A DNA stretch of 64,000 bases, taken from positions 1 through 64,000 of IMG/VR virus record IMGVR_UViG_3300010397_000043; one strand, 5' to 3'. Source of the stretch: a virus. A program made the translations under genes and the position numbers. Positions 29,017-47,230 of the stretch are shown in pieces; the stretch's first letter is position 1; every line of letters begins with the position of its first letter. The notes below the pieces were generated by a model that had not been told where the DNA came from, made no database searches, and saw only the letters and a program-made list of their open reading frames with translations.

Positions 29017-30621
29017 CTACAAAAAGAACAGGCTCGATTCGGTGACCGGGGGCTTGCCCTCCTCCGGCTTCTCGTAGAAACCGCCCGTAGCCATCACAGC
29101 AGCGACCATGGGGTCGATACGGGCGCTCGACTTCGCCTTCTCGAGCTTGCGGTTCTTGGCTGGGTCGAGCGCGACGACCGCGTTAGCCGCCGCCATGTTG
29201 AGCAGAGGGTTGTCGCCGTGGGCGAGCTTTTCCTCCAGTAGCAGTGTCTCGAAAAACTCGACGCGCGGCGACATGTCACGAAAGCCCTGGCCCACCGAGT
29301 ACCACTGGTCTTCGGGCAGGTCCTGCAGAAAGCCCTCGGCCGCAGCATCCATCTTGAATTGGCTGATGCGCCACCGGTCGAAGTGCAGGCCGGCAATGCG
29401 CATGCCAGTCAACTGCATCTTGAGGTACTGGCAGACCATGGCGTAGCTGATGATGCGCCCAGGCAGCGCGATCAGGTGGCCTTGCTTCACCCAGGTCTCG
29501 TACGGAACCCGGTCTTGCTTGGCCCGCTCACGCAGGCCCACGATGGGCGTGAATGCAAAGCACTTGAGGTGCATGACGCCAGTGTCGGGGTGCCGGGCCG
29601 CAAGCACCGCCGCAGTCAAGTCCCGGTTCTGCGACAGGTCGAGTCCGATATGCACGTCCACGCCGCTTGTGAACAGGTCCTCGTCCACCTCGCCGGCTGC
29701 GGTCTTCCAGACGCTGGGGGCCACGAACAGGGTCAACAGCGAAATGCGCTGGTTCAGGTACAGGTTGCGGAACGTCGGCTCGAAGGAGCTGATGCGCCTA
29801 GCCCGCTCGGCGGCTTCCTTGAACTCCTTCTCACTGCGGAACTTGCCCAGTGCGAAGTTCACGGTCTGCCACACCACCGGGTCGAAGATGTCGGAATCTT
29901 TCGCCGCTGCGTACAGCCGAAGAACCGTTTCCGGCGTCGGGTTCATCATCGCGTCGTCGATCAGCACACTCAGCAGGTCTGTATCACTTGCGGCCTGCGT
30001 GCTGATGATCAGCGATAGGGGTTCGTGCTGCGCGCCACCGGCGGTTTCCAGGGCGTCGTACAGTCCATCCACCGGGCCAATCACCTGCCCCAGTTCGTCG
30101 TGGATGGTCAAGGCCGGGGACAAGCCGTGAGCCGTGGTCGCATCCGCGCTCAGCGCCCGGTAGACCGTTCCCATCGCAAGGCCCTTGATGGTCTTGTACG
30201 AATCGGTGATCTGTACCAGATTGCCCAGGTCGTTGCGCAGCCGAAGTGACTTGGCGAGGTAGTTGAAAATCAGCGCCGCTTGGTCCCGACTGCGAGCCGC
30301 AGAGTACAACTGAGCGTTGGCCCTGGCTTCGGGTCCGATCAGGTGCCCCGCCAGAAGGGCCGCAATCAGGCCCGTTTTCCCATTCTTACGGGCAATCGAC
30401 AGGATGCCCCGCCGAGTAATCAGGGCCCCGAGCGGGTCCACGTTGTCATATACAGCCTCAACGAAGTCGGTCTGCTCCGGTAGCAGCACCATCGGTTGCC
30501 CGACCAGCATGCCGTCTGGCACGAGGATGTACTTCTCGATGAACCGCTGCATGCGCGAGGCACGCAGGGAACTGACCAGCGGCTTCTGCGCCGGTAGAGC
30601 AGCTTTGCGGCGAGGCATCAC
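29017..30621 (-). CDS. terL: Terminase large subunit
   Basis: Walker A ARKNGKT, Walker B IHDELG, IISTQ, GLDLS...DLTA, RIDPMVA. Confidence 0.96.
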   Translation of the reverse strand: MMPRRKAALPAQKPLVSSLRASRMQRFIEKYILVPDGMLVGQPMVLLPEQTDFVEAVYDNVDPLGALITRRGILSIARKNGKTGLIAALLAGHLIGPEARANAQLYSAARSRDQAALIFNYLAKSLRLRNDLGNLVQITDSYKTIKGLAMGTVYRALSADATTAHGLSPALTIHDELGQVIGPVDGLYDALETAGGAQHEPLSLIISTQAASDTDLLSVLIDDAMMNPTPETVLRLYAAAKDSDIFDPVVWQTVNFALGKFRSEKEFKEAAERARRISSFEPTFRNLYLNQRISLLTLFVAPSVWKTAAGEVDEDLFTSGVDVHIGLDLSQNRDLTAAVLAARHPDTGVMHLKCFAFTPIVGLRERAKQDRVPYETWVKQGHLIALPGRIISYAMVCQYLKMQLTGMRIAGLHFDRWRISQFKMDAAAEGFLQDLPEDQWYSVGQGFRDMSPRVEFFETLLLEEKLAHGDNPLLNMAAANAVVALDPAKNRKLEKAKSSARIDPMVAAVMATGGFYEKPEEGKPPVTESSLFFL

Positions 30622-31160
30622 TGCACCATGCGGGGCGGCAAGCCAGACGCACCGGCCAGCAGGCTATCGTCACCGTCGTCGCCGTCTTCGTTGATCTGTT
30701 TGGCGGCGCTCGTGGCGTTTTTCTTCTTTTGCTGCTGAGCCTTGTCGTTGTCAATGTCAAACCGGGAGGTCGGCTGCGCACGCAGCTTCGTGGACAGCGA
30801 CATCAGCCGGGTCTCGGCGATGCTGCGCACCACGATCTTGGGGTTCACGACCATGTCCCCCTTGGCGTTCTCGATGAGGTCGCCTTCTTCCTGAATCTGC
30901 TTGTCCAGCCGGTCGATATCTGCCGCCGCTCGGCAGTACAACTTCAAAAGCGGGTGGTCGCCCTTGTTGAAGTAGTCGTGCGGCTTGGAATTTACAAGCT
31001 CACACCAGTACTTCTTATGTGCTTCGGGCAGGCCCGGCGGGAACGGGTAGACAGGCACGTCGGGATTGGCCTCGATCTCAAGCGCGGCCTTCAATTCTGT
31101 GCCTTTACGATCCCCATAGGTCCCAGCCTTCTTGGCGGGCGTTTTCTTGGCGGCGGGCAT
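30618..31160 (-). CDS. terS: Terminase small subunit (P27-like)
   Basis: LKLYC, VVNP, L..KL...PTSR; overlaps the terL start. Confidence 0.85.
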   Translation of the reverse strand: MPAAKKTPAKKAGTYGDRKGTELKAALEIEANPDVPVYPFPPGLPEAHKKYWCELVNSKPHDYFNKGDHPLLKLYCRAAADIDRLDKQIQEEGDLIENAKGDMVVNPKIVVRSIAETRLMSLSTKLRAQPTSRFDIDNDKAQQQKKKNATSAAKQINEDGDDGDDSLLAGASGLPPRMVQ

Positions 31161-31161
31161 G

Positions 31162-31467
31162 TTAAGAGCCTTTCTCGATATGGATGGGATAGCCGTCTTC
31201 GCCAGTAATGACCCAGCGTTCGACAGGAGCAGCTTGGCGCGAGTCTAGCTTGCCAGTCTTCTGCGAGTGGTGCCTCTTGCACAGGCCGCGAAAGTTGCGC
31301 GGGTCGAGCGGGGCACCACCCTTGTTGATGGCGATTATGTGGTCCACCTCTGCCGCACGTGTCTGCAGTCGCAGCAGTGTGCAGACCTGGCACCAGGGGT
31401 TTAGGCGCAGGTACTTCCCCCGGGCGTCGCGCCACTGTCGGGAGGTGTAGAACGAATCGTGCGGCAT
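31162..31467 (-). CDS. HNH endonuclease (terminase-associated)
   Basis: FYTSRQWR, CQVC, VDHI, NFRGLCKRHHSQKT. Confidence 0.92.
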   Translation of the reverse strand: MPHDSFYTSRQWRDARGKYLRLNPWCQVCTLLRLQTRAAEVDHIIAINKGGAPLDPRNFRGLCKRHHSQKTGKLDSRQAAPVERWVITGEDGYPIHIEKGS

Positions 31468-31689
31468 AGGTGGGCCCGGTGTATAGCACAGGTCAGTCTC
31501 AGGTCACAAGAATTGCTGGTATGTTCACGCGCTGATCGCGATCAGGCGCGCGAGGATCAGCTATACGTCGAAAAACAGGATTGCACATTCAACTAGGGGT
31601 ATGGAATTAGAGTAGAAGTGGAATAAGAGACTCTTACGTAGAAAAACAGCATTCGTTTAAAAACGTGGCCGGCGGCGGCAATTTCGGTT

Positions 31690-31763
31690 TTGTTAAATTT
31701 TCTTTTTTACCCGCCCCCCCGCTCTTTTCTGCAAAATATTCCGCACTCTTTTCTGCACTCTTT
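31690..31763 (-). repeat. Left AT-rich short-repeat array (TGCAGAAAAGAG on minus strand)
   Basis: CTCTTTTCTGCA occurs twice plus partial copies; borders the DGA-free island. Confidence 0.7.
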
Positions 31764-32396
31764 ACAGCGAATCGAGTGCGAGTGCATCGCGTGCGATAGG
31801 TCGGGTGCGTGCCCCTCGTGTGCGAGTGTGTCGTGTGCGATAGGTGCGGCACTGCACCACACACCAGGGCGGGGGCACCAGGGCGAAGGGCGGGCCCGAG
31901 TGCTCGGCTCGTAAGCACGAAACAGCGCAGCATTACAAGCCCTGTAACCTAGGGGTACAGTGTGGCACGGTATATGCAAAGGCAAGTACCGGTCCACGTT
32001 AGTACACACTTCGTAAACGGGGCAGTGCCGGCGGGCACCCTTGCGAAACGGGCGCAGGCAACGCGAACGGGCATGCGCCAAGGGTGTATGCACACATGCG
32101 CCGATGCGCGCCAGGGCGGGCCCGCTAGGGGCCTTTGCGGGCATGGCCGAAAATGGCTAATCGTTGTGCGGCACAGCATGTGTAACCGATCCCCCTTAAA
32201 TGCGGGGGGTGGTGCAACACAGGGTTTGTAATGCCCTGCCCTGTCGCCTAGGGTATGCGTGGGGGCGCCCATTGGGCCCCCTGGGCAGGGGCCCTAAGCC
32301 CCACCCCCTCGCAGCTTTAACAACCTAGTGCCACGCAACCATAGGGGGTTCGCATGGGCCCGCCATTCGCGCACCTAGCACGAAGGCAGGCACACC

Positions 32397-32849
32397 ATGG
32401 CAACCACCAAGCAAACCACGAAGCAAACGAACCAAGCGCGCGCCGCACTGGCGCAGCGCGCATCGAAGGCGAAGGCGAAGGCTGCGAAGCCTGCGCCCGT
32501 CGAAGTCGAGGCCGACGAAAGCGAAGTCGAGGCCGACGAAGGCAACGAAGGCGGGTCGCAATGGGCCCGCGAACGCGAGCGCATCGCCGATGGCAAGGGC
32601 AGTGGGCAGCGGTTTACCGCACTCGCCGCCGCGATGCTCGAAGCGCAGCAAGCCGGCAAGTCGCATGCGACCTTTGCCGACATTGCGCAACGCACGGCAG
32701 CGCACACGCGCAACGGCAAGGCCCTTACCCGCACCAGCGTTGCAAGCTGGCGCACATTGCTGCAGCGCGCGAAGCAAACGCCCCTTGGGCCCGACCTTGC
32801 GAATGTGCGTATCGACGAAACCGGCTTTTCGTTCGCGAAGGCCGAGTAA
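32397..32849 (+). CDS. Hypothetical early protein (basic N-terminus, acidic linker)
   Basis: 150 aa; AAGG..CACACCATG start context; duplicated EVEADE. Confidence 0.75.
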   Translation: MATTKQTTKQTNQARAALAQRASKAKAKAAKPAPVEVEADESEVEADEGNEGGSQWARERERIADGKGSGQRFTALAAAMLEAQQAGKSHATFADIAQRTAAHTRNGKALTRTSVASWRTLLQRAKQTPLGPDLANVRIDETGFSFAKAE

Positions 32850-33016
32850 GCAAACCCCGCTGCGAAGGCCCCTAACGGGCCCGTAGCGGGCCCCGTAGTA
32901 CCCGAGCAGTACCCCAGGGCCCCACAGGGCCCGCAACGCCCCAAAACCCGCGCGAATCGATGCGGGCCCATGCGAACCCCTAGTGCGTGGCACACACCCC
33001 ATACGAAAGGCAAACC

Positions 33017-33157
33017 ATGCGCAACCTACGAACCCTCGCAACCGCGCTCGCACTTGTGCTCGCCGCACTCGCGCCCGCGCTACTCGGCGCAATGCTCGCA
33101 CCCGACACAACGGGCGCACACGCATTCGCGCTACTGCTACTGCAACCCCCGCACTAG
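33017..33157 (+). CDS. Small hydrophobic protein (46 aa)
   Basis: MRNLRTLATALALVLAALAPALLG...; CGAAAGGCAAACCATG start context shared with neighbours. Confidence 0.55.
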   Translation: MRNLRTLATALALVLAALAPALLGAMLAPDTTGAHAFALLLLQPPH

Positions 33158-33168
33158 CGAGGCACACC

Positions 33169-33297
33169 ATGGGCACCCACCTTGCAAACTTCGTTGCGTG
33201 GCAGTGCTATCGGGCCTTTACCTTCGCCCGAATCGAGCACGCTGCGTACTGCCCCATTAACCCGCTGCAGCGGCTCGCGCGCTGGCAGCGCCACTAA
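33169..33297 (+). CDS. Small hypothetical protein (42 aa)
   Basis: CGAGGCACACCATG start context. Confidence 0.5.
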   Translation: MGTHLANFVAWQCYRAFTFARIEHAAYCPINPLQRLARWQRH

Positions 33298-33359
33298 GCC
33301 CCCAAGGCCCGCGCAACGCGGGCCGCTACGGGCCCACCAGGGCCCACGAAAGGCACACC

Positions 33360-33683
33360 ATGCGCACCCCGTACACACCCTGTGCAGCCGACCCCATGCC
33401 CTGCCGACTCGGCGCGCTGCGCACCCCGCCAGCGCGGCCCACTGCCAAGCAAGTCGAAGCGCACGCGAATTTGCAATTCGAGTTAGCCGACTGGCAATAC
33501 ACCCCGTATACGCTGGCACGCTTCGACAGCTTCGACTGGCGCGGCGAACTCGAAAGCGAAATCGGCGCCGACGACTGGCCCGCACCCGAAGCGCCACACC
33601 AGGGCCGCACACCCCCGCGCTTCGACAACGCCGACGAAAGCTTCGCGACATGGGCTGGCATCGATGCCAGCCACGACGAGTAA
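33360..33683 (+). CDS. Hypothetical early protein with acidic C-terminal half
   Basis: 107 aa; CGAAAGGCACACCATG start; followed by a terminator. Confidence 0.65.
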   Translation: MRTPYTPCAADPMPCRLGALRTPPARPTAKQVEAHANLQFELADWQYTPYTLARFDSFDWRGELESEIGADDWPAPEAPHQGRTPPRFDNADESFATWAGIDASHDE

Positions 33684-33702
33684 AGCCCCCACGCACCCCC
33701 TT

Positions 33703-33741
33703 ACGCCCCGACAGGCATACCCTGTCGGGGCGTTTTGCTTT
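33703..33741 (+). terminator. Intrinsic terminator ending the island operon
   Basis: 13-bp stem ACGCCCCGACAGG/CCTGTCGGGGCGT followed by TTTGCTTT. Confidence 0.8.
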
Positions 33742-33761
33742 GTGCTGCAAGTTTTGCCGGT

Positions 33762-33965
33762 AGAGTTTCGTGCAGAAATCGGTGCAGTAAAGAATTCTTT
33801 GCAGAAAATCTTGCAGAAATTGTAGATTTTGCAGAAAATCTTGCAGAAATTTTTTCTGCAAAGAATTCTTGAAAAAATCTCTGTAAAAATTTCTTGCATG
33901 AGTTCTGCTGGGTACCGGGAATTCTGCAATCCTCTTAAGAGATTTTCAGAAACTTTTCGTCAGAG
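33762..33965 (+). repeat. Right AT-rich short-repeat array (TGCAGAAA[A]T), A-tracts about one helical turn apart
   Basis: TTTGCAGAAAATCTTGCAGAAATT twice, plus further TGCAGAAA/TTCTGCA copies. Confidence 0.85.
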
Positions 33966-34266
33966 ATCCCGGCAGACCCTATAGGGCCGACTTTGCGAAA
34001 CTCTATTTCGCTAAAGGCCAAACCCTGCAGAAATGGCGCTCGCCCTGGGCGCTTCGCAGGGCCCGATTTGTAACAATCGACCGATTTAAACGCCCTAGGC
34101 GCGATTTAAACGGGGTGGGGTGCCACTACCCCCTTAGCCATGCCCGAAAAACGCCCATGGGGCCCGATTTAGGGCCTTGGCGCGGCATCGGCCTATGTGC
34201 CCGACCCCCTACCCCGCAAATAGGGCCCAAAACGGCCCTAGGCATGAGGGTTCGCCCGCAGGCATG

Positions 34267-34300
34267 AAAAAACCCCTGGTGGCCGAGGCCAGCCAGGGGC
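34267..34300 (-). terminator. Terminator of the leftward early operon
   Basis: CCCCTGG...CCAGGGG stem followed by TTTTTT on the minus strand. Confidence 0.75.
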
Positions 34301-34356
34301 AAACTCACACGAAAGGTGCCGACACTCCTGCAGCGGTCGGCGGGCTGCAAACTTCC

Positions 34357-34935
34357 CTATCGGCTGTGTAGAGCCCTATCGCCATTCTGGGGCCCTATCG
34401 GCTTCCCATTCTCTTTTCGAGGGCCCCATTCCTCGACAAGGTCCCCGCCAAGCACGTAGGGCTTGAGGCCAGACTGCCAAGGCCATGCGACGTAGCTGAA
34501 ACTGCGTTTGGTGTTGAGCACCCAACCATGCACCCGCCAGATGGGACAGGTGACGCAGCGCACGGCACCGCGTGCCACATGAAAGCCACCGAGTGTGAAG
34601 TAGCTGAAATTTCGCAGCACCTTAAACTCCGCCTCGCCGAACTTCAGCGGCTTGCGATTCACCCACAGCCACGCGACACCTTCGTACTCCCATTCGCGGT
34701 CGATGAGTATGCGGCCCTGTTCGCACAGAACGTTGAACTTGTCGAGCGCCTCGCCATGCTCTTGCTCAAGGCGGTGGTGGTACTCGACGTCCTTGTTCAG
34801 GCGGGCCACCACACGCTGCATCGCCCGCAACTCAGGCTTGGTGATGTAGACGAAGTAGTGGGCCGAGCCTTTGTCTGTATTCAAGCAGCGGTCGAACATT
34901 TCACGCAGCGGCTTCCCGATCTCGAGCTTGCTCAT
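34357..34935 (-). CDS. Hypothetical protein
   Basis: 192 aa, AAGGAG RBS. Confidence 0.7.
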   Translation of the reverse strand: MSKLEIGKPLREMFDRCLNTDKGSAHYFVYITKPELRAMQRVVARLNKDVEYHHRLEQEHGEALDKFNVLCEQGRILIDREWEYEGVAWLWVNRKPLKFGEAEFKVLRNFSYFTLGGFHVARGAVRCVTCPIWRVHGWVLNTKRSFSYVAWPWQSGLKPYVLGGDLVEEWGPRKENGKPIGPQNGDRALHSR

Positions 34936-34947
34936 GGTGGTTGCTCC

Positions 34948-35148
34948 TTACTTGCCGTAGGACACACGAAGCCACACATCCCCGTGGATTTCGGGGTCGG
35001 CCTTAAAGACGACGGTGCTGAAACCTGCGCGCTTGAGGTCACCCGGCATATTGCGGTCACCCCAACGCCGGGCCTGCGCTACCGTCATGCGCACAGGCAG
35101 GCAACCCGCCACGCCGACACGCACCTCATATTGCGGTTCTTGTTTCAT
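34948..35148 (-). CDS. Hypothetical protein (66 aa)
   Basis: AGGAG RBS; MKQEPQYEVRVG... Confidence 0.65.
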   Translation of the reverse strand: MKQEPQYEVRVGVAGCLPVRMTVAQARRWGDRNMPGDLKRAGFSTVVFKADPEIHGDVWLRVSYGK

Positions 35149-35159
35149 GGCGGTTGCTC

Positions 35160-35573
35160 CTACTTGCGAAGTTGGCGCACATTCAGCGCCAGTTGCACAC
35201 GCACGTCCTGCGCAGCGCGCAGACAACTCGGGCAGGTTCGCTCCTCGGGGAAAAGCAGGCCGAGCACCTTGCGATTCCACGTAATGCGCTTGCAGCTTGG
35301 GCAGGCCAAGACAACATCGGGCAGGTTGAGCATGGCGAGCACGGGCCGGTCGAGGTCTGCCTCACTGCACTGCGGCAATTCCTTGCCCAGGTTGCACACC
35401 ATGCCGCCCGCAGGCATGTTGAGGTCCGTATCGAGCAGCACCTTCACGAAATCGTGCCGGTAGAACTTCGGGTGCCACTGAATGTGGACTTTGGCCCCGG
35501 CGACTTCATATGCCGCACGCAGCCAGAAGTCCCCGCCCGGCTGGTCGCGCTCGAACAGTTCGAGTGCATTCAT
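35160..35573 (-). CDS. Hypothetical protein with C-terminal CxxC-CxxC zinc ribbon
   Basis: GAGGAG RBS; CPSC...CPSC. Confidence 0.65.
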   Translation of the reverse strand: MNALELFERDQPGGDFWLRAAYEVAGAKVHIQWHPKFYRHDFVKVLLDTDLNMPAGGMVCNLGKELPQCSEADLDRPVLAMLNLPDVVLACPSCKRITWNRKVLGLLFPEERTCPSCLRAAQDVRVQLALNVRQLRK

Positions 35574-35577
35574 GGCG

Positions 35578-36444
35578 TTACTCCTCGCCGGTAACGATAA
35601 CGCGCATCTCGTAGCTGACTTGCGAAAGCGCAGCCGCGAGTTCACGGGTTTGGTAGCTCTCCATGCCGTTCGACATGAACCCGCCGTCAATGAACACTTC
35701 GTACTCCTCGTACATCGTCTCGATGCGCTGCCCCGTAATGCTCTTTCGCACGTCGAGCACTGAATGCTTGGCGACGCAAACCACGCACTCCTGCAAGTCT
35801 GGGTTCATGACAACCGCACGAACGATGACTTCCCGCTTTGGCAGCGCAGCGCCGAACTTCACATCGCAGCGGGCCTTCACCTCGTCGGCGATGCCCTGCG
35901 CTATGCCGTCGTCGAAAGCGGCCCAACACTCATCGGCGTCGTCGCGGCTGTTGAACTCGTGTGCCGTGAACTCGAATGGCGTGAAGCTGCGGTCGCACTC
36001 TTCGCTGGCATTCGCGCTGTCAATTACGAATTCTTCGACGGCTTCCCTGTCACGCAGATCGTAGGCACTCCCATCGGCGTAGCTGGTGACACATTCGCCG
36101 ATGACGGGGATGTCCTGCCCCGACGCCATGTTGCGACCGCGCGTGTACCCGCGCAGCCGGCACTCTTCGTAGTAGGCCTGCTGTTCAGCAGTGGGCCCAC
36201 ACGGCACCGTCCCCCACCCCCCGCTCTCGTCGCTGTTCTCGTACGTCCCGTCGTCTGCCAACTCGTCTTCGAAGCGCACGGTCACCTTGTCGTCGAAAAT
36301 CAGGCCGAACGTCTCAGCGAGTTGCTTGCGAATGCTTTCAAGGTGGTCGCGGTCTTGGTACTCGAATTCCTCGAAATCAACCGTCGCGCTCAGGGCGTTA
36401 ATGCCAGTCGTGGGGTCGCCCCGGCCATTGATGTAAACCTTCAT
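35578..36444 (-). CDS. Acidic hypothetical protein
   Basis: 288 aa; AACCACACGAAGGAG start motif. Confidence 0.7.
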   Translation of the reverse strand: MKVYINGRGDPTTGINALSATVDFEEFEYQDRDHLESIRKQLAETFGLIFDDKVTVRFEDELADDGTYENSDESGGWGTVPCGPTAEQQAYYEECRLRGYTRGRNMASGQDIPVIGECVTSYADGSAYDLRDREAVEEFVIDSANASEECDRSFTPFEFTAHEFNSRDDADECWAAFDDGIAQGIADEVKARCDVKFGAALPKREVIVRAVVMNPDLQECVVCVAKHSVLDVRKSITGQRIETMYEEYEVFIDGGFMSNGMESYQTRELAAALSQVSYEMRVIVTGEE

Positions 36445-36477
36445 GGTGTAACTCCTTCGTGTGGTTGTGGGTTGAGC

Positions 36478-37176
36478 TCAGCAGCTACCATCGTCGTACT
36501 GAGTCGGGTCGATCTGGCACCGCGCGAACTGCGTGGCAAAACTGTCGTGCTCTTCGGGCTTTAAGCTCTCGTGCCACTTCACGAGGTCCTCGCCGTACAC
36601 CACGACGTACAGCACGTCGCCGTACCCGGTGAGGTTGCCGTTCTCGGCGAACTTCGCAATCTCGCAGTCACCCGCGAGCGTCGGCGCATCGGTGGGTGCA
36701 TGCGCGCTTTCGCTACTCAGCAGCCCGTGCCAGTCGGCGGCGAGCTTCTGGGCCGCAGCCATCGCAGCTTCTGCCGTGTCGAAGTCTTGTTCGTAGGTAA
36801 CGCCAGTGTCGCCACTCTGCACGTGCCACTTGTCGAGCCGCAGCACTTTCGCGCTGGCCGGGTCGTAGAACCAGCCGTTCTGGCGCACCCGCCAGAATTC
36901 GTGCGCAACTTGCTCCTTCGTGAGTTCAAGCTCGGGGCTGTGCTCGAAACCCTTCTGGTCGATAAGCGCCGCGACCGCGTTGCGCAAGTCTTCGAGCGAG
37001 TCGGGTGACTTGCAGAACGGCAACAGGTCCTCGACATACCGTGGGGCCATTTCTTCGAGGTAGTACCGCAACCCCCGCATGTCATACATGAGGTTGGGCT
37101 TCACCTTGCCCGAATCGATATCCGCTTGCAGCTTCGTGCGGGCAGCGCGAATGCTCTCGATTTCGTTTGCGTTCAT
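36478..37176 (-). CDS. Hypothetical protein
   Basis: MNANEIES start after AACCACACGAAGGAG. Confidence 0.7.
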   Translation of the reverse strand: MNANEIESIRAARTKLQADIDSGKVKPNLMYDMRGLRYYLEEMAPRYVEDLLPFCKSPDSLEDLRNAVAALIDQKGFEHSPELELTKEQVAHEFWRVRQNGWFYDPASAKVLRLDKWHVQSGDTGVTYEQDFDTAEAAMAAAQKLAADWHGLLSSESAHAPTDAPTLAGDCEIAKFAENGNLTGYGDVLYVVVYGEDLVKWHESLKPEEHDSFATQFARCQIDPTQYDDGSC

Positions 37177-37226
37177 GGCAATACTCCTTCGTGTGGTTGG
37201 GGGGGCCGAAGCCCCCGAGGTTGTTC

Positions 37227-37739
37227 TTACGGCTTGGCAATCGTGCAATCGACGCGCGAACCCGGCTCGCCGGCGTAGTAGAGCACGGGCAGGTAATCGC
37301 CAATGACGAAGATCGCCGTGTGGTCGATGTAGCTGCCGGTCGTGTGCAGAAAGTAGACCGCCCGCCCAGTCTCGTCGCGGCACTGCTCGGCGATGCCACT
37401 TACCGGGTTGTCGAAGAAGCCAGACTCGCACTTGTCGCGGACAACCGTAAACTCCCACTCATTGTCGAATTCCCCTTCGTATGGGGTCTTGTACATACAT
37501 GCCTGCGGGTCGTCGTGCCGCACGTAGTACGCCACTGGGGCTTCATCGAGTTGCATGGCGAGCGCCTCGATGGTTTCGGTTCTGTAGTAGTCGAGTTCTG
37601 GCAGCAACTTCTCGGGCTCGTCGATGGCGCGTTGCTTGTCGCGCTCGAATGCCTCGACAGACTCATAGTCGGCAGCATCGAGCCCGACCATGAGGTCCTG
37701 CGCCAACTGGCTGAGCGCGAACTTCGTATGTGACTTCAT
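37227..37739 (-). CDS. Acidic hypothetical protein
   Basis: 170 aa; AACCACACGAAAGG start motif. Confidence 0.7.
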   Translation of the reverse strand: MKSHTKFALSQLAQDLMVGLDAADYESVEAFERDKQRAIDEPEKLLPELDYYRTETIEALAMQLDEAPVAYYVRHDDPQACMYKTPYEGEFDNEWEFTVVRDKCESGFFDNPVSGIAEQCRDETGRAVYFLHTTGSYIDHTAIFVIGDYLPVLYYAGEPGSRVDCTIAKP

Positions 37740-37764
37740 GTTCTACCTTTCGTGTGGTTAAGGG

Positions 37765-38040
37765 TTAGCGCGGTATGAAGCTGAACGCTTGGCAGATTGC
37801 GTAGTTAGAATTCGGGTCGTGAATTCGGGTACACGGGACAACCGTGCCGTCGTTGAGCGTGACCTCGATGGCGTCGTACTTGACTGGCATACCAGCCATG
37901 TCGTAACCATCGAACACGCCGATGACTTCCATTTTGCCGAGTGGTGTGTCGGGCGCATCGAAACACGCGACAGTGCCACCCTCGCACTCGAAAGTGAGCG
38001 TTGGCAACAGACGTGCCTTCGGGAACGGTGTTTTGAACAT
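37765..38040 (-). CDS. Hypothetical protein (91 aa)
   Basis: MFKTPFPK start after AACCACACGAAAGG. Confidence 0.65.
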   Translation of the reverse strand: MFKTPFPKARLLPTLTFECEGGTVACFDAPDTPLGKMEVIGVFDGYDMAGMPVKYDAIEVTLNDGTVVPCTRIHDPNSNYAICQAFSFIPR

Positions 38041-38105
38041 GACTTCTACCTTTCGTGTGGTTTGCGCCCCCACGCGACCATGCGCAGGGGCACCCGTAAT
38101 GTGAA

Positions 38106-38468
38106 TTACAAGGCTTCGTTCCCCAGGGCTTGCCGACGAACGGCGAAGTCCCGCAGCGCCTGGGCGTTGCGCAGCAGCCACTCGATGAAGTCTGGGCTCT
38201 CGACCAGCAGCAACGCGAAGTCGATGTCTACGATTGGCACGACGTCACCTTCGCCGCCCGGGTGGGCCATCGATAGCCAAATGTTCTCGCTTTGGTCTTG
38301 CCAGCACTGCACCGGGACGTCATCGATTTCGGTTTCGAGGTTCAGGTTTGGTGTGCGCTCCCCCGTAGCCGCGTTCACGCGCTCGCCAGTGTCGTCGTCG
38401 ATCCAGAAGTTGTCGGGGTCGAACGGGTCAGGCGAGCCAGACCAAGTTTGCTCTGCGTTCACGTTCAC
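38106..38468 (-). CDS. Acidic hypothetical protein
   Basis: GTG start after AACCACACGAAGGAG; DPFDPDNFWIDDDTGE. Confidence 0.6.
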   Translation of the reverse strand: MNVNAEQTWSGSPDPFDPDNFWIDDDTGERVNAATGERTPNLNLETEIDDVPVQCWQDQSENIWLSMAHPGGEGDVVPIVDIDFALLLVESPDFIEWLLRNAQALRDFAVRRQALGNEAL

Positions 38469-38578
38469 TCTCCTTCGTGTGGTTGGGTCTGCTCGTACAG
38501 CTTGGCGAAGTAGTCTGCGACGGGGTCTGGCACGAGCAGGCCGATTACGAACCCGAGCAGCACGACGATGGCTTTCAT
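38465..38578 (-). CDS. Small membrane peptide (37 aa)
   Basis: MKAIVVLLGFVIGLLVPDP...; GAGGAG RBS; coupled to both neighbours. Confidence 0.5.
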   Translation of the reverse strand: MKAIVVLLGFVIGLLVPDPVADYFAKLYEQTQPHEGE

Positions 38579-39219
38579 GCACGACTCCTCTTGTGGGCGG
38601 TTTTCTTGGCCGGCGTCGGCGTGTGCAGTTGGGCACGCACAACCTCAGGCGAGCACACGAAACCCTTGCCGTCGTACCGCCGCCGAATCTTTACCGAATT
38701 CTTCGACCGGCCAGGGGCCACACCGACGACCTCATACACCTTGTCGTGCAGCACGATTTCTGCGCCGTACCACTCTGGTTCGAGCCCGATGGCCGGCGCC
38801 CACCTCTCGAAGTCGTCGCGGGCCTGCGTCGCCAGCGCGCCAGGGTCGGCCACCTTGACCTGCAACTTGAACGTGGCCTGGAGGTCATCGAACGTCGCAC
38901 CCCCGCACGAAATGGTCACCTTGTGCTTGGCCCCAACTGCGGCCAGGGCAGCGTCGATATCTGTACGAAGCTGGCGAAGAACATCGCGGTCGATTCGGTT
39001 GGTGGTCATGGTGGTAACTCCGGTTGTCAGGTCGAGTCGGTAGGTGGTGGTCGGGCGCTGCGCGTTGTTGGCCTTGCTCTTGCAGCAGGGGCCAATGTCT
39101 CGCCCGTAGGGGTGCGCGTCGCTAGGCTCTTCGTACAGCAAGTCCTGTATGCGCACCCAGCCTCTGCAAATGTGGCAGTGCTGCCACTGCACGCCGTTCT
39201 CGTCGATTACGCCGCTCAT
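38575..39219 (-). CDS. Hypothetical protein with a second in-frame start at 39009
   Basis: RBS before both ATG 39219 and ATG 39009. Confidence 0.65.
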   Translation of the reverse strand: MSGVIDENGVQWQHCHICRGWVRIQDLLYEEPSDAHPYGRDIGPCCKSKANNAQRPTTTYRLDLTTGVTTMTTNRIDRDVLRQLRTDIDAALAAVGAKHKVTISCGGATFDDLQATFKLQVKVADPGALATQARDDFERWAPAIGLEPEWYGAEIVLHDKVYEVVGVAPGRSKNSVKIRRRYDGKGFVCSPEVVRAQLHTPTPAKKTAHKRSRA

Positions 39220-39290
39220 GGTGGTTGCTCCTTAGTCGTCGTTGTCTACCCATCGGGCGACCGGGCCAAGCTCTTGGCAAAGCTTCATAT

Positions 39291-39593
39291 TCACTCTCCT
39301 TCGACAGGGCCAAGGTCGATGCCGAGCAACGACTTGTGCAGCGGGTCGCTCTTAAACTCCTCGACCGAAGCAAACGGGCCGATGTAGTCGTTCTGCACGT
39401 CCCATTCGCCACCGCCCATGTAGCAAAAGTCCACGGCGACGAACTCCCCTGGTTTCTCTTCGTCGGCGAACAAGATGCCAAACCAGTCTTTGGCCTTGCG
39501 CACTGCGAGCGCCTTATCGAGCGTAAAGTCCTCGCGAAAGCCGTAACCCTCGAACGCATCGCGCACGCCAGCCGGTATGTTCAGCTTTGCCAT
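39291..39593 (-). CDS. Hypothetical protein
   Basis: AAGGAG RBS; MAKLNIPAG... Confidence 0.65.
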   Translation of the reverse strand: MAKLNIPAGVRDAFEGYGFREDFTLDKALAVRKAKDWFGILFADEEKPGEFVAVDFCYMGGGEWDVQNDYIGPFASVEEFKSDPLHKSLLGIDLGPVEGE

Positions 39594-39808
39594 GTTCACT
39601 CTCCTTTGCAGCACTCAACCTGCGCCAAACTCAACGGGTACACCTCTGTTTCTGTACACACCCAATTTGGCGAACAGGTTTCATGCACAAGCCGGCGAGC
39701 ATAGCCCTGCCGGCGCCAGTGGTTCAGGCTCTCGACAGCCTGCGCTTTGTCTGCCCAAGTGCTAAGTCGAATCATCTTTTGCCACGACGGCATACACGTA
39801 AACGGTTT

Positions 39809-40243
39809 TCATGCTTGGCCTCGCTTCGCCTTGAGTTGGGGGGCATCGGGCATCGCGCCCGGGGTGGGGCTATGCCGCTCGAAACGCCACGCGGGGCCCG
39901 CTTGCGGGGCGTAGGTGGGGGGCAGGGGTGCCCCGCGCGCTTTGCGGGCCTTGGCAGGGCGCGCAGGGGCCTTGGCAGGGGCAGGGCGGGGGGTGTACCC
40001 CTCGCCCCCTGCGCCACGCAATACGCGCGACGCACGCGAGCGCGGCGCGCACCCTTCGAGGGCCGCAAGGTTCAGCGGGCCGGTGGGGGGTTGCACCTCG
40101 CGCTTCTGCACTTCGACCAATTCGCCTTCGACTTCTTCGACGGCCAAAGTCACGATGGTCGTGCTGGTGTGGTTGTACACAACGCAGGGCCCGCTCTGCT
40201 GTTGGGCCTTGCGCCACGACGGGGCAATTTTTCTGTTGCTCAT
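39809..40243 (-). CDS. Hypothetical protein with Pro/Ala/Lys-rich C-terminus
   Basis: AAGGAG RBS; 144 aa. Confidence 0.55.
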   Translation of the reverse strand: MSNRKIAPSWRKAQQQSGPCVVYNHTSTTIVTLAVEEVEGELVEVQKREVQPPTGPLNLAALEGCAPRSRASRVLRGAGGEGYTPRPAPAKAPARPAKARKARGAPLPPTYAPQAGPAWRFERHSPTPGAMPDAPQLKAKRGQA

Positions 40244-40256
40244 TGGTCGGTACTCC

Positions 40257-40514
40257 TTACAGGCACTGCAGCAGGTTGCGGTAAAACTCAGCGAACAAAA
40301 CCGAGGTCTTCGGCTTCGGGCCTTCGCATGCGAACACTTGCGCGTAGTCGTCGGCAGGCATCGCGACGAGTTCTGCTTCGATGGCGTCGAGTTCTCGCCC
40401 GGTAAAGCCGACCGTTACGCGCTCGAATGCGCCTTGCGCTTCGTTGCGGTCGTAATCGCACTCCACCAGCGTGTCGCCGCACAGTTGCAAAATCTTGGCG
40501 TACTTCATGTTCAT
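40257..40514 (-). CDS. Hypothetical protein
   Basis: AAGGAG RBS; 85 aa. Confidence 0.65.
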   Translation of the reverse strand: MNMKYAKILQLCGDTLVECDYDRNEAQGAFERVTVGFTGRELDAIEAELVAMPADDYAQVFACEGPKPKTSVLFAEFYRNLLQCL

Positions 40515-40525
40515 GGCGATGCTCC

Positions 40526-40855
40526 TTAGCGGCTAAAGTTCACGACGGCGACCATTTGTGCGCGCCCCTCGGGCGTGCGCCACATGGCAACGATGGCGGC
40601 GTAGTCCTCTTGGCTCAGGCCCTGGTAGCACGCGCCCGACCACGCGGGGTCCATGCGGTCAGCATCGATGCAAAGCTCTGCGATGCCTTCTTGGTCGGGC
40701 TCGGCGAGGCCGAGTGCTTCGAGGCCTTCGTACAGGTCTGGCGCAATGGCGCAGTACACGTGGTATGCCGCCTCGTACCACTTCTCGAGCAAGGTCTGTG
40801 GCCTTTCGAGCCGAACCGGCTTCTTGGCAGGCAGCTTTCGCTTGGCGATGCTCAT
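40526..40855 (-). CDS. Hypothetical protein
   Basis: AAGGAG RBS; MSIAKRKL... Confidence 0.65.
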   Translation of the reverse strand: MSIAKRKLPAKKPVRLERPQTLLEKWYEAAYHVYCAIAPDLYEGLEALGLAEPDQEGIAELCIDADRMDPAWSGACYQGLSQEDYAAIVAMWRTPEGRAQMVAVVNFSR

Positions 40856-40857
40856 GG

Positions 40858-41058
40858 TCAGGCTCCTTGCTCTTCGACGATGCGTGCGGCACCCGGGCCG
40901 TACACGTCTACGTTGCGGTCGTCCTCTGCCAGTCTGGCGTCGAGGTATGCCTGGGCTTGCGCACGGGTGTCGAAACGCCGAGCGCCGAAGCGGGGGGTCC
41001 GCCACACGCGCCGCGTGCCCGCAGCGTTGGCGTTGCGAAACTGAATTACGAACTTCAT
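40858..41058 (-). CDS. Hypothetical protein (66 aa)
   Basis: Tightly packed within the operon. Confidence 0.6.
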   Translation of the reverse strand: MKFVIQFRNANAAGTRRVWRTPRFGARRFDTRAQAQAYLDARLAEDDRNVDVYGPGAARIVEEQGA

Positions 41059-41060
41059 GG

Positions 41061-41450
41061 TCAGGCCCCTTCGCGCTTGGTGTAGGTGCCGACTGCACTC
41101 GTGGGTTCTTCGGCGGTGGCGGCAGCGGGTGCCTCAGCCGGCAAGTCGATACGCACGAACCCCGCGCGCAGCATGTCGTGCCACATGCGGCGCGCATCGG
41201 CGACAGCGAACACGCCGTTGGGTTCATCCTCACACCGCCAGTTGGTCGCGCGAATGCGCACCCATTCGGGGTGGCCCTTCACGTGCTCGAAGGTGGCCGA
41301 CACTGCCCACCACTCGCTCTGGTATTCGAGCCGCCAAGCGGGCCCGTCGTCGAGTTGCACTTCTGGCGAGTACAAGTTCACCGCCTCGCGCATCGTGTGC
41401 GCGTACTGCCGCACTAGCGCGCTGGCCTTTTGGTGGCCTTCTGTTCTCAT
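41061..41450 (-). CDS. Hypothetical protein, first gene of the leftward early operon
   Basis: CACACGAAAGGCAGG start context; MRTEGHQK... Confidence 0.65.
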   Translation of the reverse strand: MRTEGHQKASALVRQYAHTMREAVNLYSPEVQLDDGPAWRLEYQSEWWAVSATFEHVKGHPEWVRIRATNWRCEDEPNGVFAVADARRMWHDMLRAGFVRIDLPAEAPAAATAEEPTSAVGTYTKREGA

Positions 41451-41829
41451 GTTTGCCTGCCTTTCGTGTGTGCCGTGCGCACCGTGCGCGCGACACTCGA
41501 AGGGTACAACGGTTGTAATGTGACTAGCAACGCCCATGGGCGCGTGTCGATTACCAGTGGTAATTCCCGAACGCGGGTGGTAGCGTGGCCCGTGGCCCAG
41601 TGGGCTGTGCTCCGCCGTGGGCAAATTCAATTGCTCATGCGGCAGCAGCCCGGTGGGGCAGAGTAGGTGTAGGAAGTCAGGCTGCGAGAAGTCCGCCGGG
41701 AGGCTGGAGTTCTTGGCAGAGGGGCCGGCTCGCGCGTATGCGAGCGGGCAGGAGGATGCGTAAAATCCGGCCTCGGCGAAAAGCCTAGGAATGTCTTAAG
41801 AGATTTTCTGCGGCTTTGGGGCTTGGGAG

Positions 41830-42157
41830 CCACCGGCCTCAGTAGGCCTTTGGCGGGTTGGACGTAGAACGAGCACTCTCAACACACGTTCGACGCCAAC
41901 CCCGCTACTCAGCTCGTCAGGTACTGCGCTTCACAACGCAGGGTCCGCCAGTCGTTGCTTGGACGCTTCGTGGACCAACGACTCGGGACGAACCTTGTGG
42001 AGCTACCTATCACCGCTGCTGTGGACTGCCGGGGGCAACCACGCAAACCCCAAATCCACTTGCGGTGACCGGCATGCAGGCTCCACTTACCTGACGCACC
42101 CCGCCGTTGAACCCACCGGGGCTTGTCACCACAACGACCGGTCAGTCGATGCGATGG
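41830..42157 (-). ncRNA. Putative structured ncRNA / long leader RNA
   Basis: No convincing ORF; at least six nested helices; downstream of a sigma70-like promoter. Confidence 0.55.
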
Positions 42158-42162
42158 GCCGA

Positions 42163-42191
42163 ACTGTGCCACAACCCGCCGGGCTTTGCAA
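42163..42191 (-). promoter_or_regulatory. Sigma70-like promoter
   Basis: TTGCAA-17 bp-CACAGT with extended TG. Confidence 0.5.
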
Positions 42192-42334
42192 GACGTACCC
42201 GGCCCGCCCCGCAAACGGCCCGCCGGGGCCCTATCGCCATCCTATGCCCTATCGCCATCTTGAGAACCATTTCGATCCGCCCCGCCATTCCCCCGACCAG
42301 ATGTATTGAATTGGTTAGTGTGGGCAAAACCGGG

Positions 42335-42423
42335 GTGTTGAGTGGGTAGGGGTAGTGGGTATGGGGATGGGGGGCCCTTTAGGGGCCCTCCCATACCCAC
42401 ATACCCCTACCCACCTACAACAC
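42335..42423. other. Long imperfect inverted repeat, candidate replication origin
   Basis: GTGTTG..GTGGGTAGGGGTA.GTGGGTATGGG..GGGCCC arm pairs with the C-rich arm; 30 bp after the primase-helicase stop. Confidence 0.5.
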
Positions 42424-42451
42424 TACATCCCGGCGCGGAGAAATATGGAGC

Positions 42452-44554: not shown

Positions 44555-44664
44555 AGTAGAACCTGATGAATTACCGGTGGTAATGGGGGCGGGTTTGTTA
44601 CTTGCTAGTCCGGGCCCGGCGGCGTACCATGGGCGCATCGCTTCGTTGCCTGCCTAGCGACTTC

Positions 44665-45802: not shown

Positions 45803-45847
45803 ACCCCATTACCACTGGTAATCGCACTCCTAAACCACGAGGCACCC

Positions 45848-46719: not shown

Positions 46720-46722
46720 ACC

Positions 46723-47196: not shown

Positions 47197-47230
47197 ACTC
47201 GCCAACCCAACGGACGACTTGGAGCCGACC

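What the first reader, a model, noticed from the sequence alone, without database searches (positions are those of the whole stretch)
31762..33761. A 2-kb island almost purged of AGA/GGA/TGA on both strands
Seen: reading 31762-33761 by hand, nearly every GA is CGA and every TC is TCG; I found only two exceptions (TCC at 31993 and 32190), while these six trinucleotides are common elsewhere. The constraint overrides coding: all four genes end in TAA/TAG and their RBSs avoid GGAG (CGAAAGGCACACCATG, CGAGGCACACCATG), whereas the rest of the phage uses GGAG. The boundaries are sharp and marked by AGA-rich arrays. Inference: this is the terminal-repeat or first-injected segment, kept free of a target motif. 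Options: (a) a context-specific phage DNA modification that this DNA must lack (7-deazaguanine substitution at GA motifs is known in phage CAjan); (b) avoidance of host restriction or DarT-type targets before anti-defence genes are expressed; (c) exclusion of a protein that binds the flanking arrays.
Basis: partly seen in the sequence, partly recalled or inferred. Interest (0 to 1): 0.9.

Follow-up and report, generated by a model that had tools for sequence, protein, structure and literature searches.

The report
Early phage genes purged of TCH/DGA
An uncultured soil phage has rewritten its first-used genes so that one three-letter DNA word never occurs in them, most likely to keep that stretch free of the chemical mark the phage puts on the rest of its own DNA.

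Summary
In 31762-33761 the six words AGA/GGA/TGA/TCA/TCC/TCT occur 2 times against about 127 expected. All three codon phases and the 635-base non-coding leader are affected.

The island is one rightward transcription unit: leader, four small orphan genes, strong terminator.

Three new findings:
- A second block, 38440-41500, lacks the word only on the RNA-like strand of its genes. TCC alone is missing through the whole leftward operon down to 34126.
- The genome encodes a thymidine-hypermodification kit (5-hmdU DNA kinase, amino-acid:DNA transferase, thymidylate-synthase homologue). No DpdA or methylase was found.
- 20 of 21 distant relatives of island protein 1 lack every dipeptide that "GA only after C" forbids, so selection keeps the rule across lineages.

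Best reading (0.4): the kinase marks T in TCH, and these early units are exempt from the phage's own mark. Main rival (0.3): an enzyme that reads single-stranded RNA or DNA.

A terminal repeat is not supported. First injection is plausible but unproven.

This scan has noted similar motif-purged early cassettes in other phage DNA. I found none in print.

The parts
31641..31761 (.). Left AT-rich array with two TTTCTGCA copies. It is TCT-rich on the + strand and has no DGA there. It lies between the HNH gene and the island and is a candidate promoter or border element.
   Evidence: inverted arms I1, I14, I15 with the right array
31762..32396 (+). Non-coding leader of the island. It contains three 30-nt direct repeats (31772, 31801, 31816) and GGGCCC clusters. 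TCH is 2 and DGA is 0, against 18.6 and 22.3 expected.
   Evidence: fold z = -3.0; no Rfam match
32397..32849 (+). Island gene 1 (P0002, 150 aa). The N-terminus is disordered and basic/acidic. Residues 52-150 form a helical domain whose best, non-significant, fold hits are winged-helix domains. It founds a family of 21 distant relatives that obey the same dipeptide rule.
33017..33157 (+). Island gene 2 (46 aa, hydrophobic), with an ACGAAAGG-type ribosome site
33169..33297 (+). Island gene 3 (42 aa)
33360..33683 (+). Island gene 4 (P0003, 107 aa, acidic). No relative was found other than its own record.
33703..33743 (+). Intrinsic terminator (13-bp stem, 10 G-C pairs, then a T-rich tail) that ends the island unit. 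The purge stops about 20-50 bp after it.
33762..33900 (.). Right AT-rich array with five TGCAGAAA copies and one TTTCTGCA copy, and an internal 30-nt imperfect palindrome. It is the mirror image of the left array.
38440..41500 (-). Second purged block. Seven leftward genes whose RNA-like strand lacks TCH (7 against 54.3 expected) while DGA on that strand is near normal. It begins at a putative promoter (TTGCTA, 18 nt, TACCCT) near 41500. The first gene starts at ATG 41450 with the island-type ribosome site.
34126..38462 (-). Distal part of the same leftward operon. Only TCC (3 against 27 expected) and ATCA (2 against 9) are missing from the RNA-like strand.
30618..31467 (-). Context: HNH endonuclease (31162-31467) and a Terminase_4 small subunit (30618-31160), directly upstream of TerL (29017-30621). 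This is an HK97-style packaging module next to the island.

Best explanation
The island is a self-contained early transcription unit: a 635-base leader, four small genes and a terminator. Selection has rewritten it so that T-C-[A/C/T] (read on the other strand, [A/G/T]-G-A) is absent from both strands.

The phage carries the enzymes that replace thymidine by 5-hydroxymethyl-dU and then decorate it after replication. These are a thymidylate-synthase homologue, a 5-hmdU DNA kinase and an amino-acid:DNA transferase. In characterised phages the decoration goes only to T in certain contexts, mainly TG and less often TC.

I propose that this phage's kinase takes T in TCH but not in TCG. About 16% of T would then be hypermodified genome-wide. 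The island would be the one stretch of virion DNA with no hypermodified base at all. The promoter-proximal genes of the leftward early operon would be unmarked on their RNA-like strand.

Plain DNA would let unmodified host machinery use these genes at the very start of infection. It could also hide them from defences that recognise the modified base, or let them be shut off together with host DNA.

Shown: the purge, its strand pattern, its match to transcription units, the modification genes, and conservation of the rule in relatives of gene 1.

Inferred: that the kinase's context is TCH, that the island enters the cell first, and why the non-template strand is the one kept clean.
For: 1. The modification kit is encoded in G000. 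The 5-HMUDK lies at 69697-70707 (PF18723, E 1.3e-41). The amino-acid:DNA transferase lies at 72175-73098 (PF18724, E 7.3e-20). A P-loop kinase lies at 74416-75030 (PF18748, E 5.1e-7). The thymidylate-synthase homologue lies at 75100-76161 (PF00303, E 4.5e-16). No other DNA-modifying enzyme was found. TGT, N6_N4 MTase, D12 MTase and C5 MTase gave 0 hits each in six-frame searches. None appears among 38 further proteins.

2. Published context specificity. 5-hmdU is converted 'in sequence-specific contexts' (PMC8989533, passages). Restriction-resistant sites in M6, ViI and PhiW-14 carry TG or TC (PMC6449724, passages). dapT in phage SH-Ab 15599 sits at TG and 'to a lesser extent' TC (PMC13458397, passages).

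3. The purged word has exactly one invariant T:A pair, followed by C.

4. The purge is confined to early-type units that share one ribosome-site motif, while the rest of the genome carries the word at about 1 per 16 bp. This is what a self-inflicted mark predicts. A motif dangerous everywhere would be avoided everywhere.

5. The avoidance is graded: TCC, then ATCA, then the other TCH words. It looks like one enzyme with graded affinity.

6. A weak hint from 6-bp palindromes outside the early region. Those containing TCG are the most avoided class (56 observed against 244 expected). Those containing TCH are the least avoided (48 against 71.5). This is as expected if TCH is protected and TCG is not (6 against 6 words, p = 0.047).

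7. Selection keeps the rule in other lineages. 20 of 21 relatives of gene 1 have none of the dipeptides that a coding-strand DGA purge forbids.

8. Bulky C5 groups on T can block bacterial RNA polymerase, mainly at promoter recognition (PMC4838386, passages).
Against: - In 38440-41500 the clean strand is the non-template strand. The template strand is enriched for the word (TCT 56 against 24.1). A simple 'polymerase cannot read modified T' model predicts the opposite.
- Two characterised T-hypermodifying phages show no purged di- or trinucleotide: M6 (all 59,446 bp) and SH-Ab 15599 (first 100,000 of 143,204 bp). The feature is therefore not a general need of such phages.
- Nothing here measures the kinase's specificity or any modified base.
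- TCC and GGA are mildly under-represented genome-wide (TCC 230 against 302 and 215 against 364; GGA 264 against 369 and 434 against 605). That fits a word that is costly everywhere.
- The 13 ATTACC-N3-GGTAAT operators do not sit in unusually long word-free gaps. Protein-binding sites in general do not avoid the word.
- The palindrome contrast is not significant against all other classes (p = 0.30).
- The record is about 84% complete, so other modification genes could lie in the missing part.
Confidence: 0.4

Rival explanations
1. An enzyme that reads single-stranded nucleic acid attacks UCH/TCH early in infection. The substrate would be the early mRNAs themselves, or the non-template DNA strand exposed in transcription bubbles. 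The enzyme could belong to a host defence: an endoribonuclease toxin, an ADP-ribosyltransferase of the DarT2 or CmdT kind, or a TC-specific deaminase. It could also be the phage's own host-shutoff nuclease. Genes that must work before the phage neutralises the enzyme have lost the word on the exposed strand. The island lacks it on both strands because it is transcribed from both flanking arrays.
For: - The purge in 38440-41500 is on the RNA-like strand only (TCH 7 against 54.3 expected; DGA 74 against 88.6).
- It begins at the putative promoter and start site near 41500.
- It is strongest in promoter-proximal genes and weakens at a gene border inside the same operon.
- The island's purge runs from the start of its unit to just past its terminator.
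- The two arrays are mirror images facing the island, which would allow convergent transcription.
- Enzymes with such short single-strand motifs exist. DarT2 modifies the T before C in TNTC of ssDNA (PMC11543638, passages). CmdT modifies A in GA of ssRNA (PMC11618068, passages).
- The mild genome-wide shortage of TCC and GGA fits a word that is costly everywhere.
Against: - No known enzyme has this motif.
- The purge does not depend on the base two places before the C, as TNTC would require.
- CGA is kept and enriched, unlike a plain GA target.
- Antisense transcription of the island is assumed, not shown. No sigma-70-like promoter was found in 31200-34600 (0 found).
- This reading gives no role to the phage's own T-modification kit.
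- Middle and late genes carry the word freely.
Confidence: 0.3
2. This is leading-end site avoidance of the T5 first-step-transfer kind. The island is the first DNA to enter, and it avoids the target of a host nuclease that cuts double-stranded DNA, until an island-encoded inhibitor has been made.
For: - The island lies next to the HNH-TerS-TerL module, with its genes pointing inward.
- T5-like phages resist restriction only if sites are absent from the first-transferred DNA (PMC10644984, passages).
- The phage avoids many 6-bp palindromes genome-wide: CGATCG 0 against 47.7, GTCGAC 0 against 42.7, TTCGAA 0 against 27.1. Restriction pressure on it is therefore real.
- GATC is scarce in 31600-42300: 8 against 37.5.
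Against: - A 3-bp degenerate target occurs about once per 16 bp, and no known restriction system has one.
- The one-strand purge of 38440-41500 cannot be explained by a duplex cutter.
- Termini were not mapped.
- Depth shows no terminal repeat.
Confidence: 0.12
3. The pattern is a by-product of composition, or an assembly chimera. The island would come from another organism, or from mutation bias rather than selection.
For: - The island is T-poor (13.5% T).
- Logan contigs do not bridge its left border. Two pieces meet at 31678-31682 with a 5-nt overlap.
Against: - Synonymous shuffles never approach zero (minima 8 and 18).
- There is no TTH or DAA excess of the kind deamination would leave.
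- The island shares its ribosome-site motif, its GGGCCC-type repeats and its mirrored arrays with the flanks.
- Depth is like that of the flanks.
- The same rule holds in 20 of 21 relatives from other assemblies.
Confidence: 0.03

Closest known systems
Context-specific thymidine hypermodification (phages M6, ViI, PhiW-14, PaMx11, SH-Ab 15599)
   Same: The gene kit is the same: a 5-hmdU DNA kinase, an amino-acid:DNA transferase and a thymidylate-synthase homologue. In those phages only T in certain contexts is decorated: TG, and less often TC.
   Different: The context here is inferred to be TCH with TCG exempt, and it has not been measured. No motif-free early zone is reported in the passages I read. 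I found none in M6, or in 100 kb of SH-Ab 15599. The kinase is at most 31% identical to any in the phage collection.
First-step-transfer (pre-early) DNA of T5 and BF23, and the leading early region of T7
   Same: It is a short block of small early genes next to the packaging end. It lacks target sites, so that it can be expressed before counter-defence is in place (PMC10644984, passages; the T7 comparison is recalled, not read here).
   Different: T5 lacks particular 6-bp sites in about 10 kb of terminal repeat. Here a degenerate 3-base word is removed completely from 2 kb. There is no sign of doubled depth. A second block is purged on one strand only. Two-step injection has not been shown.
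DpdA 7-deazaguanine modification at GA/GGC (phage CAjan and relatives)
   Same: It is a phage-made base modification at a very short context that includes GA. The CAjan motifs are as quoted in earlier scan notes; I did not read that paper.
   Different: There is no TGT/DpdA homologue in the 87.5 kb held. CGA is retained and enriched.
Single-strand modifying defence toxins: DarT2 (TNTC, ssDNA) and CmdT (GA, ssRNA)
   Same: Both have very short motifs and act on single strands. Their core dinucleotides, T-C and G-A, are the same as here.
   Different: The purge ignores the base two places before the C. It spares TCG and CGA. No such toxin is known with a TCH motif.

Membership tests
Thymidine hypermodification system (5-HMUDK pathway) | 5-hmdU DNA kinase | tested here: met
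   G000 69697-70707 matches PF18723 at E 1.3e-41, 143 bits against a cut-off of 25.
Thymidine hypermodification system (5-HMUDK pathway) | aGPT-Pplase / amino-acid:DNA transferase | tested here: met
   G000 72175-73098 matches PF18724 at E 7.3e-20, 72 bits against a cut-off of 26.2.
Thymidine hypermodification system (5-HMUDK pathway) | dUMP hydroxymethylase (a thymidylate-synthase homologue that makes 5-hmdUMP) | tested here: inconclusive
   G000 75100-76161 matches PF00303 at E 4.5e-16. The profile does not separate a hydroxymethylase from an ordinary thymidylate synthase.
Thymidine hypermodification system (5-HMUDK pathway) | Hypermodified T present in virion DNA, at a defined context (here proposed to be TCH) | not testable with these tools
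   Only one Illumina-derived contig set is available. There is no native-DNA or mass-spectrometry data.
T5-type first-step-transfer region | Lies at the end of virion DNA that enters first | tested here: inconclusive
   The island is adjacent to the HNH-TerS-TerL module. A Logan contig break at 31678-31682 is one of several breaks and is not specific.
T5-type first-step-transfer region | Part of a long terminal direct repeat | tested here: not met
   Contig depth is 7.43 against 9.84 and 7.05 beside it. No second copy exists in G000. The depth is one figure per contig, so the test is weak.
T5-type first-step-transfer region | Target sites absent from the region | tested here: met
   2 sites against about 127 expected.
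DpdA / 7-deazaguanine modification | DpdA (TGT-family transglycosylase) encoded by the phage | tested here: not met
   PF01702 gave 0 hits at E <= 0.1 in a six-frame search of G000, while 14 of 14 control genomes gave hits. The record is about 84% complete.
DpdA / 7-deazaguanine modification | GA as such is the context | tested here: not met
   The island keeps 78 GA, all as CGA. In the island genes CGA is 50 against 30 expected.
DarT2 target avoidance | Four-base TNTC motif with a specific T two places before the modified T | tested here: not met
   NTCH is purged for all four N in region 2 and in the island.
Restriction-site (duplex) avoidance | The word is avoided equally on both strands | tested here: not met
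   Both strands are purged in the island. In 38440-41500 only the + strand lacks DGA, and TCH on that strand is normal or enriched.

The most novel reading that the evidence does not exclude
A lineage of soil phages keeps a 'clean-start' cassette whose DNA is written without a three-base word. This would point to an undescribed, widespread enzyme with three-base specificity (U/T-C-H). It could be a host immune effector or a phage shutoff factor. It would act on single-stranded nucleic acid in the first minutes of infection. The phage's TCH-directed thymidine mark could then be the DNA-level counter-measure to that same enzyme.
Probability: 0.25. Interest if true: 0.92.

Novelty: new variant of a known kind. 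Interest (0 to 1): 0.82.

Why it matters
If the best reading holds, sequence alone reveals the target context of an uncharacterised DNA-hypermodifying kinase. It would also show that a phage can exempt its bootstrap genes from its own modification. That would be a design rule for how heavily modified phages start an infection. It is relevant to engineering such phages and to reading modification motifs from metagenomes.

The strand-specific block is the more puzzling part. It says that whatever reads the word distinguishes the two strands of a transcribed gene. No current model of thymidine hypermodification predicts that.

The dipeptide signature (DE and DD common; ED, EE, KE, KD, QE and QD absent) gives a way to detect such purged genes from protein databases alone.

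Tried and rejected
DNA and protein relatives
- blastn of 31400-34200 against 50,697 phage records gave no match.
- Terminase relatives in IMG/VR (37 loci) and in JGI metagenomes (44 loci) are at most 56% identical. None has a six-word-free gap over 143 bp. They are too distant to count as homologous regions.
- Kinase relatives in IMG/VR: one 4.8-kb contig at 59% identity.
- Island and leftward-operon proteins gave 0 Pfam and 0 PHROG hits.
- The protein atlas gave only unnamed viral clusters at 0.86.
- Foldseek against PDB gave a best E of 0.56, with winged-helix domains on top. This is not significant.
- P0003 has no relative other than its own record.
- DNA of the P0002 relatives could not be obtained. 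Searches with P0004, A4 and A5 in viral contigs, and with A5 in genome contigs, found none.

Reads
- One run was found, a soil metagenome of 2017. It may be the source of this DNA and is kept only as Logan contigs.
- It shows no read starts, no termini and no bridging contig over 31680. Breaks recur every 2-7 kb, so that break is not evidence for cos.

Other tests without result
- Rfam over 31000-43000 gave only chance microRNA-like hits.
- The sigma-54-like site at 31963 is not supported: 12 matches in the window against 7.6 expected.
- TCGAGTG as a shared start motif is too common to mean anything.
- Operators do not sit in larger word-free gaps.
- TGA recoding by the UCA tRNA was checked. 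There is no convincing in-frame TGA in well-patterned ORFs.
- The shortage of GATC in the early region is largely a by-product of the purge together with genome-wide avoidance of CGATCG.
- Codon-level explanations (tRNA or anticodon nuclease) are rejected, because all three phases and the non-coding leader are purged.
- A mutational (deamination) origin is rejected, because there is no TTH or DAA excess.

Literature
- For a motif-free or unmodified early zone in modified phages I searched with the terms. The listings showed none.
- Supplements were closed and were not seen. They may hold modification maps for M6, ViI or SH-Ab 15599.
Full report
WHAT THE RECORD IS. The window is bases 1-64000 of an 87,528-bp IMG/VR viral contig, classed as linear and about 84% complete. 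It is a long-tailed phage. Tape-measure, tail, portal, major-head and large-terminase genes lie on the minus strand between about 2.9 and 31.5 kb. A leftward operon runs from a primase/helicase (42452-44638) down to 34126. Rightward genes fill 44.9-87.5 kb. The only run that holds the DNA is a soil metagenome.

AGA, GGA and TGA (DGA), with their complements TCT, TCC and TCA (TCH), occur 5417 times on the plus strand of the record, about once per 16 bp. In 31762-33761 there are two, both TCC, against about 127 expected from the rest of the genome. The longest stretch free of all six words is 1572 bp, and the runner-up in the genome is 304 bp. A gap scan over all 64 trinucleotides puts this island, and a second region, at the top of the genome.

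The effect is not a matter of amino-acid or GC content. In 300 synonymous-codon shuffles of the four genes the minimum was 8 TCH and 18 DGA, against 0 and 0 observed. All three codon phases are empty. The 635-base non-coding leader is as clean as the genes: TCH 2 and DGA 0, against 18.6 and 22.3 expected.

The codon consequences are exact:
- 38 of 38 Asp/Glu codons follow a codon ending in C (54% elsewhere).
- 29 of 29 xTC codons are followed by a G (46% elsewhere).
- Ser uses only TCG and AGY.
- There is no GGA, no AGA and no TGA stop.

Eighty-one loci around distant terminase relatives never exceed a 143-bp gap.

ANATOMY. The island reads as one rightward transcription unit.
- It begins directly after an AT-rich array with two TTTCTGCA copies.
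- A leader follows, with three 30-nt direct repeats and many GGGCCC (15 of the genome's 68 copies lie inside the island).
- Four genes of 150, 46, 42 and 107 codons come next. Three carry an ACGAAAGG- or ACGAAGG-type ribosome site (gene 3 has a shorter GCGAGG form), followed in all four by GCA(C/A)ACC-ATG.
- The unit ends at a 13-bp-stem terminator at 33703-33733.
- A second array follows, with five TGCAGAAA copies. It is the mirror image of the first (44-nt arms, 70% complementary).
- No sigma-70-like promoter is found in 31200-34600 (0 found).
- None of the four proteins has a Pfam or PHROG match.
- An AlphaFold model of protein 1 is confident for residues 52-150 (block pLDDT 64-89). Its best Foldseek hits are winged-helix domains, but none is significant (best E 0.56).

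A SECOND, ONE-STRANDED PURGE. Between 38440 and about 41500 the plus strand almost lacks DGA (GGA 1, AGA 2 and TGA 4, against 34, 30 and 39 expected). Plus-strand TCH there is normal or enriched (TCT 56 against 24). The genes in this block are on the minus strand by their GC1 > GC2 < GC3 pattern. It is therefore their RNA-like (non-template) strand that lacks TCH: 7 against 54.3 expected, with a minimum of 37 in 300 shuffles. DGA on that strand is near normal, 74 against 88.6.

The clean zone begins at a putative promoter (TTGCTA, 18 nt, TACCCT) just below an ATTACC-N3-GGTAAT palindrome. The first gene starts at ATG 41450 behind the same ribosome-site motif as the island genes.

Further down the same operon (38462 to 34126) only TCC (3 against 27) and ATCA (2 against 9) are missing. 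The change happens at an overlapping gene junction, without an intergenic gap. The avoidance is therefore graded: TCC, then ATCA, then the other TCH words. It follows genes and transcription units, not distance along the DNA.

WHAT COULD READ THE WORD. The right arm encodes the thymidine-hypermodification kit:
- a 5-hmdU DNA kinase (PF18723, E 1.3e-41);
- an amino-acid:DNA transferase (PF18724, E 7.3e-20);
- a second P-loop kinase of the HMUDK type;
- a thymidylate-synthase homologue;
- a family-A DNA polymerase.

Six-frame searches for TGT/DpdA and for three DNA-methylase families found nothing. Pfam scans of 38 further proteins found no other modifying enzyme.

In characterised phages the decoration of 5-hmdU is context-specific:
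- 'sequence-specific contexts' (PMC8989533, passages);
- TG or TC in resistant sites of M6, ViI and PhiW-14 (PMC6449724, passages);
- TG, and to a lesser extent TC, for dapT in SH-Ab 15599 (PMC13458397, passages).

The purged word has one invariant T, followed by C. My best reading is therefore that this kinase takes T in TCH, and that the island is exempt from the phage's own mark. TCH sites make up about 16% of all T on both strands. I derived this figure from the counts. By recall, not from a call, it lies within the range of partial substitution reported for such phages.

TESTS OF THAT READING, FOR AND AGAINST. Among 6-bp palindromes outside the early region, the TCG-containing class is the most avoided (56 against 244). 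The TCH-containing class is the least avoided (48 against 71.5). This is what protection at TCH, but not at TCG, would give. The classes have only six words each (p = 0.047), and the TCH class does not differ from all others (p = 0.30).

Several results speak against the reading:
- The strand that is kept clean in the second block is the non-template one.
- The 13 operator palindromes do not sit in longer word-free gaps than random sites.
- M6 (complete) and the first 100 kb of SH-Ab 15599 show no purged di- or trinucleotide.
- TCC and GGA are mildly scarce everywhere in this genome.

The strand pattern, the start at the promoter and the gene-by-gene grading fit at least as well an enzyme that reads the transcript or the exposed non-template strand. 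Such enzymes with two- to four-base motifs exist: DarT2, TNTC in ssDNA, and CmdT, GA in ssRNA. Neither motif fits in detail. That rival also has to assume transcription of the island from both arrays.

CONSERVATION. I therefore used a protein-level consequence of the rule. If GA may follow only C on the coding strand, then Asp or Glu can never follow Lys, Glu, Gln, Met or Trp. Likewise Met or Trp can never precede Ile, Met, Thr, Asn or Lys.

A profile search with island protein 1 found 21 proteins at E <= 0.001 among 1.84 billion representatives. Their median pairwise identity is 41%. Taking these together with P0005 from the earlier word-index search gives 22 family members including P0002. 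Of the 22, 21 have no forbidden dipeptide. P0022 has two.

Composition-preserving shuffles expect about 84 in total. The sum of log10 P is -43.5 if the proteins were independent, which they are not fully.

In the 21 relatives (2,893 residues) DE occurs 23 times and DD 11 times. ED, EE, KE, KD, QE, QD, WD and WE occur 0 times. The other proteins of this genome (22,503 residues) have 72, 78, 43, 40, 46 and 36 of the first six.

The relatives come mostly from Logan assemblies on short contigs. One (P0019) is on six contigs of up to 52,916 bp. So the rule 'GA only after C' is kept by selection across a diverged family. One member, P0011, is a 73-residue fragment nearly identical to P0002 and adds nothing independent.

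POSITION IN THE VIRION DNA. The gene directly left of the island is an HNH endonuclease, followed by a Terminase_4 small subunit and TerL. From general knowledge of HK97-like phages (recalled), this module sits next to cos, and the DNA on its far side is packaged last and ejected first. That would make the island the leading end, with its genes pointing inward. I could not map the termini. The only run is kept as contigs. Their break at 31678-31682 is one of seven in 20 kb. Depth over the island (7.43) is not doubled. A terminal repeat is thus not supported, and first injection remains an inference.

VERDICT. Its specific candidate, 7-deazaguanine, does not. The phenomenon is closest to site avoidance in T5 first-step-transfer DNA (PMC10644984, passages), and it differs from that in four ways:
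- the word is a degenerate three-base word;
- the phage encodes a plausible reader of that word;
- there is a one-strand form;
- a conserved protein-level signature exists.

Earlier notes of this scan describe similar purged early cassettes in other phage DNA. I did not test those. My three literature searches listed no description of such a zone.

Noticed in passing
G000 79911-79986 (L043:9911-9986); window 61662-61738: The phage encodes a tRNA with anticodon UCA, which ARAGORN calls tRNA-SeC, beside a tRNA-Trp(CCA). Six of the seven genes of the one-strand-purged block end in TGA, while the island has no TGA at all. A quick look found no convincing in-frame TGA recoding.
   Followed up: partly
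window 45646-49758 (+): There is no TAG on the plus strand for 4.1 kb over the tandem paralogue array: 0 against 24 by the genome rate, while CTA is 37. A coding-aware null for the seven genes I had called there expects only 7.4 against 2 observed, so the signal is weak.
   Followed up: partly
whole record outside 31600-42300: Many 6-bp palindromes are strongly avoided: CGATCG 0/47.7, GTCGAC 0/42.7, TTCGAA 0/27.1, TGGCCA 2/37.7, CAGCTG 1/26.2 and GTGCAC 1/21.9. Others are not avoided: CTGCAG, TGCGCA, TGATCA and TCATGA. All 333 GATC sites outside the early region have TCH on at least one strand.
   Followed up: partly
window 32345-32363 and 32962-32980: A perfect 19-nt inverted repeat brackets island gene 1. 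Each arm lies about 35 nt upstream of a start codon.
   Followed up: no
window about 33933 and about 41797: The same roughly 15-nt word (TCTTAAGAGATTTTC) stands at both outer edges of the leftward early operon.
   Followed up: no
window 6004-6202, 34029-34245, 39832-40072, 56735-57039: These are smaller stretches of 198-304 bp free of all six words, most with GGGCCC clusters. The first contains an ATTACC-N3-GGTAAT palindrome. The last covers a Pro/Ala/Lys-rich protein tail and a terminator.
   Followed up: partly
window 62018-64000 and on to G000 64942: The family-A DNA polymerase ORF (974 aa) carries a weak LAGLIDADG match in its middle (residues 440-489). This is possibly an intein or an inserted homing endonuclease.
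   Followed up: no
window 31528-31551: A GC-rich palindrome with two GATC sites (core CTGATCGCGATCAG), and a 19-nt direct repeat 71 nt apart (31564 and 31635), lie in the 300-bp gap between the HNH gene and the island. This is a candidate cos or regulatory region.
   Followed up: no
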